DNA from: Promethearchaeota archaeon
GTDB lineage: Archaea; Asgardarchaeota; Lokiarchaeia; Sigyniarchaeales; SOKP01
Assembly (NCBI GenBank): GCA_048939995.1
Contig: JBHLOY010000007.1
Span: 32,001 to 96,000, forward strand
DNA length: 64,000 nt
Reading direction: 5' to 3'
Below the pieces are notes generated by a model, which was given only the letters and a program-made list of their open reading frames with translations, did no database searches and was not told where the DNA came from. Both the position numbers and the translations under genes were made by a program. This document shows, piece after piece, positions 12,819 to 21,913 of this stretch (position 1 is its first letter; each line of letters opens with the position of its first letter).

Positions 12819-13352
12819 TCATTTAAATCCATATTTTCCAACATGAAGAATTATTTCTTTTGCTAACAATTTAAAAGCTATATCTATATTTTCTCCGGTC
12901 TTACTAGATATTCTTAAATATTCAAAAAAGTTATATTTTTGCATAAATTCGAATATAAAATCACCAGAAAGCATAATTGATTCCTTCAAGTCTGATTTTG
13001 AGCCAATAAATAAAATGGGTAAATCAGGATTTTCTGTTCTGCATACATCCACCCACTCTCCTATTTTTTCTAAGGTAATAGGCCGGGTGGGATCAAATAA
13101 TAAAAGAGCCCCTTTTGCCCCTCTAGCATAATTTTTAAGAAGAAAGCGAAAGCGTTCTTGACCTCCAAAATCCCAAATTTGTAAAATAATTTTCTCATAA
13201 TCAAGCTCTATAGTTTTTAAGAAAAATTCAACACCAATTGTCATTTGCAAATTTTCAATGAATTTTCCTTCAATATACCTATGAAGCATTGTGGTTTTCC
13301 CAACTCCTCCATCTCCAGCAATAATTGTTTTAAAAACTTTCGGTTTGGACAT
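12819..13352 (-). CDS. Rab-like small GTPase
   Basis: GDGGVGKT (G1), TIGVEF (G2), WDFGGQERF (G3), GSKSD (G4) and SSKTG (G5). Confidence 0.93.
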   Translation of the reverse strand: MSKPKVFKTIIAGDGGVGKTTMLHRYIEGKFIENLQMTIGVEFFLKTIELDYEKIILQIWDFGGQERFRFLLKNYARGAKGALLLFDPTRPITLEKIGEWVDVCRTENPDLPILFIGSKSDLKESIMLSGDFIFEFMQKYNFFEYLRISSKTGENIDIAFKLLAKEIILHVGKYGFK

Positions 13353-13434
13353 TTAAAAGCACTTTTATTGTATGATTATTAAAATGGCTACTTCATTATT
13401 TGAAATATCAAAAAGTATTAAATTTTTTCTTAAT

Positions 13435-13866
13435 TTAATCAAAAGTTAAATATTTTTTCTGCCTTAGAAAAATTGTGCTAATTCCCAACCTTTTCACTTC
13501 CTTTCGTAGCTTAGAATCATTCGTGGCCAAAAAAACGCGCCACTTTTTTTCTTTTAAGTTAATACACTGCTTTATTAAAAATTCATCCGTAGTTTCAGAT
13601 TCCAATTTTACTTTATTCTTAATTTCAATATGAAATCTCTCTTTATTTGACTCTAGGTAAATTAAACTTGATTTTAGTTCCGTTTGAAATTTTGACGTTG
13701 TTGACTCACGCCTACTTTTTGCTTCTAATTCATCTAATATTTGTTTGTATATAATAAAACATGTTTTACCTTCAATCTCTAAGCAAATTTCATTAAAGTA
13801 ATCGATTTTAAATTGAAAAGGAAGTAAAATGAAGTTAGAATCAATAACAACTACATTATTAAACAT
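13435..13866 (-). CDS. PIN-domain nuclease, Fcf1/Utp24-like
   Basis: IDSNF, ILDELE, TTDEF and LATNDSKLRK..IFLRQK give the complete acidic tetrad. Confidence 0.85.
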   Translation of the reverse strand: MFNNVVVIDSNFILLPFQFKIDYFNEICLEIEGKTCFIIYKQILDELEAKSRRESTTSKFQTELKSSLIYLESNKERFHIEIKNKVKLESETTDEFLIKQCINLKEKKWRVFLATNDSKLRKEVKRLGISTIFLRQKKYLTFD

Positions 13867-13880
13867 TTTACAAATTAGAA

Positions 13881-14402
13881 TTAAAATATCTGTTTTTCTA
13901 ATATTCTTTTTGTTAATAAGTCAAAAGCAAATTTTACATTTTCTCCAGATTTGCTCGAAACTCGTAAATAGTCAAATAAATTAAAATCGCTCTTAAAATT
14001 CAATGCATATTCATCATTAACCATAATTTCATCCTGTAAATCGTTCTTTGTACCTAAAAATAAGATTGGAAGGTTTGGATTCCCCTTTCGACAAATATTA
14101 ACCCACTGTTCTAGATTTTCAAGAGTTATAGGGCGTGTTAGGTCGAACATAAGCAAAGCACCTTTCGCTCCTAATACATAACTTTCCAGCAAGAATCGAA
14201 AACGTTCCTGGCCTCCAAAGTCCCAAAGTTGGAGCGTACAATGTTGGCCGTCGATCTCAATCTCTTTAAGGAAGAATTCGACTCCGATCGTCATTTTTGT
14301 CTCAGCTGAAAACCTTCCTTCAACATAACGATGTAAGAGTGTTGTCTTACCTACACCTCCTTCTCCAGCTGTCAGGATCTTAAGTATAAATTTTTTAGGC
14401 AC
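13881..14402 (-). CDS. Rab-like small GTPase (paralog of 12819..13352)
   Basis: GEGGVGKT, TIGVEF, WDFGGQERF, GTKND and SSKSG. Confidence 0.93.
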   Translation of the reverse strand: MPKKFILKILTAGEGGVGKTTLLHRYVEGRFSAETKMTIGVEFFLKEIEIDGQHCTLQLWDFGGQERFRFLLESYVLGAKGALLMFDLTRPITLENLEQWVNICRKGNPNLPILFLGTKNDLQDEIMVNDEYALNFKSDFNLFDYLRVSSKSGENVKFAFDLLTKRILEKQIF

Positions 14403-17315: not shown

Positions 17316-17405
17316 AGAATAATTAGATAATATTATATTTTATTAAGGAACACTTAAAAAAATTATTTTTCGTTTTAATTGAATTAAACAAATTAGAAAA
17401 AAGTG

Positions 17406-17591
17406 TTTTAACCACAAAAATTTTAGCGTTTCTGGGTTCAGATGGGACCAGGTATTTTCCTGTTTTACCATGACCGTAGCCTAAGCCACAGTTAGAAAGT
17501 TCCCACAAATCTCAATTGCAGTACTGATTTCAACGCAAAACAGTTTAACTTCCAGCGCATTACGATATGGATATGATTTTTGTGGTTAAAA
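17406..17591. repeat. Perfect 16-bp inverted repeat flanking the permuted 5S gene (putative processing stem)
   Basis: TTTTAACCACAAAAAT at 17406-17421 and ATTTTTGTGGTTAAAA at 17576-17591 are exact reverse complements. Confidence 0.9.
17430..17549 (-). rRNA. rrf: 5S rRNA, circularly permuted gene (3' half 17549-17485, UUAG linker 17484-17481, 5' half 17480-17430)
   Basis: The minus strand reads GUUAAACUGUUUUGCGUUGAAAUCAGUACUGCAAUUGAGAUUUGUGGGAACUUUCUAACUGUGGC-UUAG-GCUACGGUCAUGGUAAAACAGGAAAAUACCUGGUCCCAUCUGAACCCAGAA. It shows helix I (GCUACGGU/ACUGUGGC), helix II (GUAAAACAG/CUGUUUUGC), loop C (CCCAUCUGAAC) and loop E (AGUA/GAA). Total length is 120 nt. Confidence 0.88.
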
Positions 17592-17769
17592 AATCCATTA
17601 AGACCATCTTATAAGCTTGGCTAACTTTTCTCAAAATAGCTTGCTTATATGGTTTTAAGTAAATAGAATTAATAAAAGCTACTAATTAAATTTTATTATT
17701 ATAAACCATTAAATTTAAAAGCTAAAGTTCAGAGTCTGTTATTATCTAGAAGAACTCCGTCTATTAGAG

Positions 17770-20347: not shown

Positions 20348-21913
20348 ATGACACTAAATTTAGAAGATATTTCTGGAATAGGTAAGGCTACCGCTGAACG
20401 GATGAAAGCAGCAGGTATAGACTCAGTCGAAAAGTTAGCTTCCTGTAAACCAGAAGATCTAACAAAAATTAAAATTAAAGGCGTAGGGACATCAACAGCA
20501 ATCAAATATATTGCTAATGCAAAAGAATTATTAACTTCTAAGGAGAAACAAAAAGATCAACCTGCAAAAGAAGAAGGACCACAAGAAACCGAAACAAAAG
20601 TAGAGAAAGCACCTACTAAAAAGTATTCTCCCGAAAAAGCAAAGGAACTAGAGAATTTAATAAGACAACAAGCTGAATGCAACATTGGTTTAGTCGGGCA
20701 TGTAGATCACGGAAAGACTACATTAGTTAAGTCACTTACTGGAGATTGGACAGATAGGCACTCCGAGGAAAAAGAGAGAGGAATATCGATTAAATTGGGT
20801 TATTCTAACGCAACTATACTATACTGTCCTGAATGTGATGAATATCTCACATCATACATGGCACAAAAAGATCGCAAAAAAGGGGAACCTTCCTATAGTT
20901 GCAGAAGATGCGAAGGAAGTTTAATATTTAAAAGAAATATATCATTTGTTGATGCTCCTGGACACGAAATACTGATGGCTACAATGTTAAGTGGGGCTTC
21001 TTTAATGAATGGAGCTTGTTTACTTATTGCCGCTGATGAAACATGTCCTCAACCTCAAACTCGAGAACATCTTGCTGCTTTAAATATTGCGGGAATTGAA
21101 AATGTAATTATAATTCAGAATAAAATTGATGCTGTATCTAAGGAACAAGCATTTAAAAATTACCAACAAATTAAAAAATTCCTTAAAGGAACACCTATAG
21201 AAAATGCACCCATATTACCTGTCTCAGCAGTATTTAGTGCAAATATTGATCTTGTAGTCAAAGCGTTTGAAGAAGTAATTCCAACGCCAGAATTAAGTAA
21301 TGAGGAAGCATTTGAATTTTTAATAGCTAGATCGTTTGACATTAACAAACCAGGTACAGATATAAGTAAATTGAGAGGCGGAGTTATTGGAGGATCTGTT
21401 CTAAAGGGAAGAATTAAGGTCGGCGATGAGATAGAAATCAGACCAGGGATAAGAATTAAAAATAGTTATTCTCCTATTAATTCGAAAATAGTCAGTATAA
21501 GTCAAGGAATGAATCTATTGAATGAAGCTAAACCTGGTGGTTTAATTGGTCTAGGAACAAAATTGGATCCAGCATTAACTAAAGGAGACTCATTGATAGG
21601 GCATTTAGTTGGAATTCCAGGCACATTACCGGATGTTATTTCAGAGGTTGAGCTAAAAGTCCATTTACTTGAAAGAGTTATTGGTTCAGAGATGCAAATA
21701 AAAGTAACAGAACTTAAGCATAATGAAAAGTTATTACTGGTTGTAGGTACAGAGAAAACTGGGGGGACGATAACAAAAATTCTCAAAAATTCTTATATAT
21801 TACAACTAAACCCTCCAATTTGTATTCCCAGAGATTTTATCTTTGCAATCTCACGAATAATAAATCGAAGGTATAGGCTGATAGGTTATGGAGAACTAGT
21901 TAGCGCTAATTAA
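20348..21913 (+). CDS. eif2g: Translation initiation factor aIF2 gamma subunit with extra N-terminal helix-hairpin-helix domain
   Basis: NIGLVGHVDHGKTT, RGISIKLGY, Zn knuckle, DAPGHE..MATMLSG, QNKID and ARSFDINKPG. The N-terminal LEDISGIGKATAERMKAAGI..KGVG is an HhH motif. Confidence 0.95.
   Translation: MTLNLEDISGIGKATAERMKAAGIDSVEKLASCKPEDLTKIKIKGVGTSTAIKYIANAKELLTSKEKQKDQPAKEEGPQETETKVEKAPTKKYSPEKAKELENLIRQQAECNIGLVGHVDHGKTTLVKSLTGDWTDRHSEEKERGISIKLGYSNATILYCPECDEYLTSYMAQKDRKKGEPSYSCRRCEGSLIFKRNISFVDAPGHEILMATMLSGASLMNGACLLIAADETCPQPQTREHLAALNIAGIENVIIIQNKIDAVSKEQAFKNYQQIKKFLKGTPIENAPILPVSAVFSANIDLVVKAFEEVIPTPELSNEEAFEFLIARSFDINKPGTDISKLRGGVIGGSVLKGRIKVGDEIEIRPGIRIKNSYSPINSKIVSISQGMNLLNEAKPGGLIGLGTKLDPALTKGDSLIGHLVGIPGTLPDVISEVELKVHLLERVIGSEMQIKVTELKHNEKLLLVVGTEKTGGTITKILKNSYILQLNPPICIPRDFIFAISRIINRRYRLIGYGELVSAN

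What the first reader, a model, noticed from the sequence alone, without database searches (positions are those of the whole stretch)
17406..17591. BHB/BHL splice motif and 16-bp processing stem predict a covalently circular 5S rRNA
Seen in sequence: the two ends of the permuted gene pair as 5'-GCG CUGG AAG UU-3' (17558-17547) with 5'-AAC CCAG AAA CGC-3' (17438-17426). This gives a 4-bp central helix CUGG/CCAG, a clean 3-nt AAA bulge, and a relaxed AAG bulge/loop on the other strand. A perfect 16-bp inverted repeat (17406-17421/17576-17591) encloses the whole unit. Established: the archaeal tRNA-splicing endonuclease EndA cuts after the second nucleotide of each bulge, and RtcB ligates the ends. 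Inference: cutting at CCAGAA|A and CUGGAA|G and ligating gives ...GAACCCAGAA-GUUAAAC..., precisely the canonical 5S helix III junction. The product would be a 120-nt circle that either stays circular or is reopened at the UUAG loop, making 5S maturation splicing-dependent.
Basis: partly seen in the sequence, partly recalled or inferred. Interest (0 to 1): 0.93.

Follow-up and report, generated by a model that had tools for sequence, protein, structure and literature searches.

The report
Spliced, ring-shaped Asgard 5S rRNA
This Asgard archaeon, like most of its relatives, writes its only detectable 5S ribosomal RNA gene back half first between tRNA-splicing signals, and public RNA data show the ends joined into a 120-base ring, which would explain why 5S genes have been 'missing' from many Asgard genomes.

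Summary
Confirmed. Window 17549-17430 (minus strand) is a circularly permuted 5S rRNA gene of a Promethearchaeia (Lokiarchaeia) archaeon, the only 5S-like locus in a 98%-complete genome. Its ends form a relaxed BHB (hBH/BHL) inside a perfect 16-bp stem; cutting after bulge base 2 restores the canonical 120-nt 5S. Two independent sediment metatranscriptomes hold 150-nt contigs (120+30, a closed ring) with this joint (17549 to 17430, 3-nt ambiguity); two long-contig runs cross the ends linearly. The permuted gene occurs in 22 Asgard families. The motif covaries (48 of 68 intact against 12 with shuffled partners), slides by one base either way or moves to another site, each time restoring 5S; relatives also carry ~30-nt BHB-bounded inserts. 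The genome encodes two EndA subunits and RtcB. Not shown: enzyme action, or that ribosomes hold the ring rather than a reopened RNA (about 0.6). No paper on this turned up; the closest case is the permuted circular SRP RNA of Thermoproteus. This scan noted the gene before on other genomes; the RNA joint and the phylum-wide survey are my own tests here.

The parts
17683..17696 (-). Likely archaeal promoter: purine-rich BRE (17696-17691) and TATA box TTTAATTA (17690-17683)
   Evidence: Same TATA found 29-30 nt before a conserved ACT in about 60 related locus rows, some of them duplicates; function inferred from archaeal promoter anatomy
17599..17660 (-). Inferred transcription start (about 17660) and conserved 5' leader hairpin of unknown role
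   Evidence: Alignment of 19 relatives: 12 pairs, 4 with compensatory changes; no second copy found by BLAST in 5 near-complete relatives; start not mapped
17576..17591 (-). 5' arm of the outer processing stem (16 bp here)
   Evidence: leader-trailer helix of at least 8 bp in 45 of 48 family loci, median 12.5 against about 7 for shuffled trailers
17549..17558 (-). Leader strand of the splice motif: outer helix GCG, central helix CUGG, bulge AA|G; cut between 17550 and 17549
   Evidence: Sequence; covariation; RNA joint
17485..17549 (-). 3' part of canonical 5S rRNA, encoded first (end of helix III, 3' strand of helix II, helices IV and V, 3' strand of helix I)
   Evidence: Profile score after re-ordering; helix covariation
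17481..17484 (-). UUAG tetraloop joining the normal 3' and 5' ends and closing a 7-bp helix I
   Evidence: 73 of 82 called hairpins in relatives have a 4-nt loop, 61 of them UNCG; RNA contigs run through it
17430..17480 (-). 5' part of canonical 5S rRNA, encoded second (helix I 5' strand, helix II, helix III with internal CUGG at 17451-17448, loop C, CCAG-AA)
   Evidence: Weak Rfam RF00001 match to this half, 20.7 bits
17426..17435 (-). Trailer strand of the splice motif: central helix CCAG, bulge AA|A, outer helix CGC; cut between 17430 and 17429
   Evidence: Sequence
17406..17421 (-). 3' arm of the outer processing stem
17397..17402 (-). U6 tract just after the stem, possible terminator
   Evidence: Sequence only; inference

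Best explanation
A stand-alone, circularly permuted 5S rRNA gene. Shown: the two halves are swapped in the DNA, the normal ends are fused by a tetraloop, the new ends lie in a relaxed BHB, and RNA-library contigs contain the joined ends as a 120-nt ring. Inferred: a precursor of about 260 nt is made from the TATA promoter; the outer stem brings the ends together; leader CUGG takes the place of the internal CUGG and pairs with the CCAG of helix III; the two-subunit EndA cuts after the second base of each bulge; RtcB joins the ends; CCAG then refolds into mature helix III, so a complete 5S exists only after splicing. I think the ring is probably (about 0.6) the form that enters the 50S subunit. 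The stated confidence is for splicing-type joining into a ring.
For: RNA: joint 17549 to 17430 'goes back 120' in runs X1 and X2 (two studies), 37 letters on the short side, contigs 95-99% alike and exactly 150 nt; a third 150-nt contig of a relative in X2 wraps the same way; no RNA cover outside 17430-17553; long-contig runs X3 and X7 cross the ends with no joint. No canonical 5S in this genome or in five single-contig Asgard genomes. Motif: central helix 4/4 in 58 of 68 distinct motifs; central helix plus first three outer pairs in 48 of 68 against 12.1 +/- 2.4 (max 20) when leaders are dealt among loci. Leader, helix III 5' strand and helix III 3' strand change together, C-C-G in 11 and U-U-A in 6 of 17 sequences, so the leader is a pairing partner, not a repeat. 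The motif occurs in three registers (-1, 0, +1) and each restores the canonical junction; in 16 family members it has moved to the other strand of helix III, where there is no shared sequence at the joint, with central helix 4/4 in all 16. About 30-nt inserts in relatives have BHB-type borders in 25 of 33 rows. EndA alpha with the catalytic Tyr/His/Lys and a loop aligning to the A. pernix specificity loop, a second EndA-like subunit lacking the His, and RtcB; such enzymes cut relaxed motifs (PMC6379350). uL5 and a weak uL18 match are present.
Against: RNA evidence is three low-depth contigs (2.9, 5.1, 12.3) from close relatives in metatranscriptomes, not reads from this strain; the joint has 3 shared letters, so reverse-transcriptase template switching is not excluded; contigs give no strand, ends or levels. 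The BHB fold is 2.8 kcal/mol above the predicted minimum. Families f4, f10 and f19 have permuted genes with a weak or missing outer helix. Related loci are not independent, so the shuffle test overstates. No enzyme assay.
Confidence: 0.9

Rival explanations
1. Same splicing, but the ring is only an intermediate that is reopened in or near the helix I loop to give an ordinary linear 5S, as for permuted tRNAs and many pre-16S/23S circles.
For: Precedent (PMC4267664 citing Soma 2007; PMC10515664). Short linear RNAs are easily lost and rings over-sampled in cDNA libraries, so closed contigs do not measure the share of rings. A few families (f14, f16, f21) have longer helix I hairpins and rings of 124-131 nt. 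The loop here is UUAG, not UNCG.
Against: The link is a minimal, mostly UNCG tetraloop (61 of 82) with no spacer to remove; 7 bp plus 4 nt equals the 18 nt of the 9-bp helix I in canonical relatives, and the ring has mature length. All words across the loop are present in a contig of mean depth 2.9. The Thermoproteus SRP RNA stays circular (PMC4731332).
Confidence: 0.35
2. The mature RNA is a linear permuted 5S with a nick beside helix III (as in brown-algal mitochondria); the joined contigs are template-switch artefacts or a minor by-product.
For: 3-nt microhomology at the joint; low depth; artefact-prone and unvalidated 5S circles were reported in Sulfolobus (PMC3326292); linear permuted 5S exists in organelles (PMC4267664).
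Against: Ends with exact BHB geometry in three registers and at further sites, always restoring an uninterrupted 5S; internal inserts with BHB borders require ligation on the same RNA; three contigs from two studies give the same 120-nt period and no other joint.
Confidence: 0.06
3. The ring in the RNA contigs is a graph artefact: junction words come from a co-occurring relative that carries this junction in its DNA (canonical gene or second-site permuted gene), or the locus is a misassembly or pseudogene.
For: Contigs come from mixed communities and were laid at 80% likeness; second-site relatives do carry this junction in DNA.
Against: The X1 contig differs from the window at one base; known second-site genes differ at many; no canonical gene was seen in any family f1 locus inspected; X7 spans the whole unit in the permuted order; the gene is conserved in 32 of 36 genus genomes with covarying 5S helices.
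Confidence: 0.03

Closest known systems
Permuted, circular SRP RNA of Thermoproteus tenax and T. uzoniensis (Plagens et al. 2015, PMC4731332)
   Same: [quoted passage not shown]
   Different: That is SRP RNA in one genus; this is an rRNA, seen in 22 families across a phylum, with several break points and optional internal inserts. Mature circularity is proven there, not here.
Circularly permuted tRNA genes (Cyanidioschyzon merolae, Soma et al. 2007, cited in PMC4267664)
   Same: Swapped halves, BHB at the new ends, circular intermediate.
   Different: tRNA rings are reopened by removing a spacer; here the old ends are joined by a bare tetraloop.
BHB processing stems and circular pre-16S/23S rRNA of archaea; circular 23S in ribosomes (PMC12918454, PMC10515664, PMC7758197)
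   Same: Leader-trailer stem with BHB, EndA cut, ligation to a ring; circular 16S/23S transcripts reported in Asgard archaea.
   Different: Those genes are in normal order and the BHB lies outside the mature RNA; those papers state 5S is not processed this way. Here the cut lies inside the conserved core and one BHB strand is 5S helix III itself.
Permuted mitochondrial 5S rRNA of brown algae (Valach et al. 2014, PMC4267664)
   Same: 5S gene in permuted order with helix I closed as a hairpin; missed by RF00001.
   Different: Break at the three-way junction, linear mature RNA, no splice motif.

Membership tests
5S rRNA (RF00001) | Reaches the Rfam gathering score as encoded | tested here: not met
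   20.7 bits against 38, one half only; expected for a permuted gene
5S rRNA (RF00001) | About 120 nt, 5S sequence and helices I-V once re-ordered | tested here: met
   120 nt; 46.8 bits on a profile of canonical Asgard 5S against 19.6 in genomic order; helices I, III, IV, V 98-100% paired and helix II 82% in 17 sequences, with compensatory changes. RF00001 itself could not be run on the re-ordered sequence.
5S rRNA (RF00001) | Expressed as RNA | tested here: met
   RNA-library contigs cover only 17430-17553 and hold a joint absent from DNA; close relatives, not this strain
5S rRNA (RF00001) | Bound by uL5/uL18 in the 50S subunit | not testable with these tools
   uL5 and a weak uL18 match are encoded; binding not tested
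BHB/BHL substrate of EndA | 4-bp central helix | tested here: met
   CUGG/CCAG; 68 of 68 cells paired in 17 sequences with C-G to U-A change
BHB/BHL substrate of EndA | 3-nt bulge closed by an outer helix on one side | tested here: met
   AAA then CGC/GCG; first three outer pairs intact in 54 of 68 motifs
BHB/BHL substrate of EndA | Second strict 3-nt bulge closed by a helix (strict hBHBh') | tested here: not met
   U.C mismatch after AAG; the motif is the relaxed hBH/BHL type
BHB/BHL substrate of EndA | Joint lies after the second bulge base on both strands | tested here: met
   17549 to 17430, one of four equivalent registers
BHB/BHL substrate of EndA | Broad-specificity EndA and RtcB in the genome | tested here: met
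   Two EndA-family genes and RtcB; subunit type and loop function inferred from alignment to the A. pernix enzyme
BHB/BHL substrate of EndA | Cleaved by EndA in vitro | not testable with these tools
   Needs an assay
Permuted RNA gene restored as a stable ring (Thermoproteus SRP type) | No canonical copy elsewhere in the genome | tested here: met
   (98% complete, though 16S and most of 23S are unassembled); five single-contig relatives
Permuted RNA gene restored as a stable ring (Thermoproteus SRP type) | Ends ligated in cellular RNA | tested here: met
   contig level only
Permuted RNA gene restored as a stable ring (Thermoproteus SRP type) | The ring is the mature working form | tested here: inconclusive
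   Tetraloop, length and closed contigs favour it; contigs cannot show ends or shares
Permuted tRNA type (ring reopened) | Removable spacer between the old ends and re-linearisation | tested here: inconclusive
   Only a 4-nt loop in 73 of 82 hairpins; reopening cannot be seen in contigs

The most novel reading that the evidence does not exclude
Most Asgard lineages build ribosomes with a covalently closed 5S rRNA that exists only through tRNA-type splicing, and their 5S genes gain BHB introns and shift their break point; normal linear 5S genes (three Asgard families here, and possibly the eukaryotic line) would then be reversions or separate retentions.
Probability: 0.55. Interest if true: 0.93.

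Novelty: new variant of a known kind. Interest (0 to 1): 0.86.

Why it matters
5S rRNA is treated as the one archaeal rRNA not matured by EndA or circularised (PMC12918454) and as free of proven introns. A splicing-dependent, probably circular 5S across the closest prokaryotic relatives of eukaryotes would change that. It also answers a stated gap: Wu et al. 2022 (PMC8813620) could not predict any 5S gene in their Asgard genomes, and single-contig genomes of the same sizes (3.33 and 3.08 Mb) carry the permuted gene here. It gives a fix for annotation (a permuted model finds the gene in 114 of 126 family genomes) and raises a testable question about the state of 5S in the ancestor of eukaryotes.

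Tried and rejected
Rfam at gathering thresholds and ARAGORN found nothing in the window; snR55 and mir-2778 hits are chance. The 61-aa ORF over the locus is rejected: the sequence is conserved as RNA and relatives have inserts and indels. Bacterial promoter/terminator scan is not informative. Leader as a simple terminal repeat is rejected: when the trailer is CCAG the leader is CUGG, its complement. No similar leader or stem elsewhere in this genome or near other genes of five relatives; 16S and most of 23S are not assembled here, so their processing stems could not be compared. Single-sequence folding did not predict the BHB. Paper searches for 'permuted 5S', 'circular 5S' and 5S with Asgard found no report; the library lacks most subscription papers. 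One family f4 locus (L050) was dropped from the tally as a mis-call; on re-reading it is a real permuted gene with a weak motif (3/4, outer 1/5), so the tallies are very slightly high. Eight of 33 insert rows were placed ambiguously by the aligner. No species tree was built, so direction of change is not tested. No raw-read RNA run was available.

Full report
Observation. The 16-bp inverted repeat is the only one of its kind in the window and was not matched in 500 shuffles. The splice motif has a 4-bp central helix, a clean AAA bulge closed by three G-C pairs, and on the other side an AAG followed by a mismatch, so it is a relaxed hBH/BHL, not a strict BHB. Thermodynamic folding of the single sequence prefers mature helix III; the BHB form is 2.8 kcal/mol higher.

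What it is. Between the predicted cuts lie 120 nt: the 3' part of 5S rRNA (17549-17485), a UUAG loop (17484-17481) and the 5' part (17480-17430). Rfam sees only one half at 20.7 bits, and this is the only RF00001 match in the 3.75-Mb, 98%-complete genome. Re-ordered at the predicted joint it scores best of 169 alternatives on a profile of canonical Asgard 5S, and all five helices hold with compensatory changes in relatives. Named records with the same arrangement are mostly Promethearchaeota/Promethearchaeia. The gene stands alone between a C25 peptidase gene and an unknown gene, with a conserved BRE/TATA, a likely start at about 17660 and a conserved leader hairpin.

Spread. The unit is in 32 of 36 genomes of the genus. 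A model of the permuted order matches 114 of 126 genomes of the family and full length in many other families of the phylum. Reading the loci, the permuted order is present in 22 families and the canonical order in three, f2, f12 and f15. Five single-contig genomes have no 5S over the Rfam cut-off. Three contigs match exactly the published lengths of Freyarchaeum and the two Atabeyarchaeia genomes (PMC11291895) and two match the sizes of the Heimdallarchaeum genomes of PMC8813620, whose authors could not predict 5S genes; these identifications are inferred from length.

Evidence that the ends are a splice signal. In 68 distinct motifs the central helix is complete in 58, and central helix plus three outer pairs in 48, against a mean of 12 and a maximum of 20 when leaders are swapped among loci (relatives are not independent). 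The leader base changes with both strands of helix III. The motif sits in three registers, -1, 0 and +1, and the cut after bulge base 2 gives the canonical junction each time. In 16 of 86 called family loci the break has moved to the 5' strand of helix III with its own motif and no shared letters at the joint; one f3 locus has a third break in loop B (read by eye). Many relatives carry one or two inserts of about 30 nt in loop C, the helix IV region or helix I; in 25 of 33 rows the borders set by sequence comparison coincide with a BHB. The genome encodes an EndA alpha subunit most like that of Aeropyrum pernix, with the catalytic residues and a loop aligning to its specificity loop, a second subunit without the catalytic His, and RtcB. 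Such two-subunit enzymes cut relaxed motifs (PMC6379350). It also has many tRNA introns at unusual positions.

Evidence from RNA. Two sediment metatranscriptomes from different studies each hold a 150-nt contig that reads 17466-17430 and then 17549-17437 on the minus strand: a joint that goes back 120, at the predicted bonds or up to 3 letters on. 150 is 120 plus 30, which is how a closed ring appears in a 31-letter word graph (my inference from the assembly method). A third contig from a more distant relative wraps in the same way. There is no RNA cover of leader or trailer. Two runs with long contigs cross the ends in genomic order without a joint, which also argues against misassembly. Limits: low depth, contigs not reads, relatives rather than this strain, and a 3-nt overlap that allows template switching.

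Mechanism and odds. Permuted 5S gene: about 0.99. Ends joined into a ring by splicing at the motif: 0.9. Ring retained in the ribosome: about 0.6, because the old ends are fused by a bare, mostly UNCG tetraloop that takes the room of two terminal base pairs and keeps mature length, and because the Thermoproteus SRP RNA and some archaeal 23S rRNAs work as rings. Reopening, as for permuted tRNAs, remains the main rival.

Comparison and novelty. It works like the permuted SRP RNA of Thermoproteus (PMC4731332) and uses the BHB chemistry of pre-rRNA stems, but it is a 5S rRNA cut inside its core. Permuted 5S is known only from algal mitochondria, linear and unspliced (PMC4267664); circular 5S reads in Sulfolobus came from a normal gene and were not validated (PMC3326292); a survey of 5S expansion segments does not mention permutation (PMC7812874). 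I found no paper on this gene. Earlier notes of this scan describe the same gene on other Asgard genomes; they are not independent support. Verdict: real, new variant of a known kind, interest 0.86.

Noticed in passing
window 17599-17660 (-): Conserved 5' leader hairpin with invariant AUAA/UUAU and ACC/GGU helices and a conserved internal loop; role unknown, not seen elsewhere in five near-complete relatives.
   Followed up: partly
L006, L014, L027, L114, L118, L129, L140 and others: About 30-nt inserts at several sites of the 5S gene with BHB borders; they look like 5S rRNA introns; some genes have two.
   Followed up: partly
L118 (G134), loop C insert: The insert contains a copy of the neighbouring exon sequence, a hint that introns arise by local duplication.
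   Followed up: no
L031, L033, L052 trailers: Second-site permuted genes keep a decayed remnant of the old end in the trailer, suggesting the break moved by duplication of about 20 nt into the leader.
   Followed up: no
L190-L195 (f10), L181/L200/L201 (f19), L050/L133/L134 (f4): Permuted 5S genes whose outer helix at the joint is weak or missing; processing there may use another fold or enzyme.
   Followed up: no
L201 (G167): The 5S gene is followed at once by a second copy of its start, a tandem duplication.
   Followed up: no
L036-L047 (f2), L196-L199 (f12), L177 (f15): Canonical 5S genes, often in 2-3 copies in f2, inside a phylum where most families are permuted.
   Followed up: partly
L074, L091, L103: Records labelled Thorarchaeota, Nanopelagicaceae and Hodarchaeota carry a family-f1-type permuted 5S locus; likely mislabelled or mis-binned contigs.
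   Followed up: no
window 20348-21913 (+): aIF2-gamma with an N-terminal helix-hairpin-helix domain (Pfam HHH_5).
   Followed up: partly
window 12819-14402 (-): Two Rab-like small GTPase genes flank a PIN-domain gene (PIN_9).
   Followed up: no
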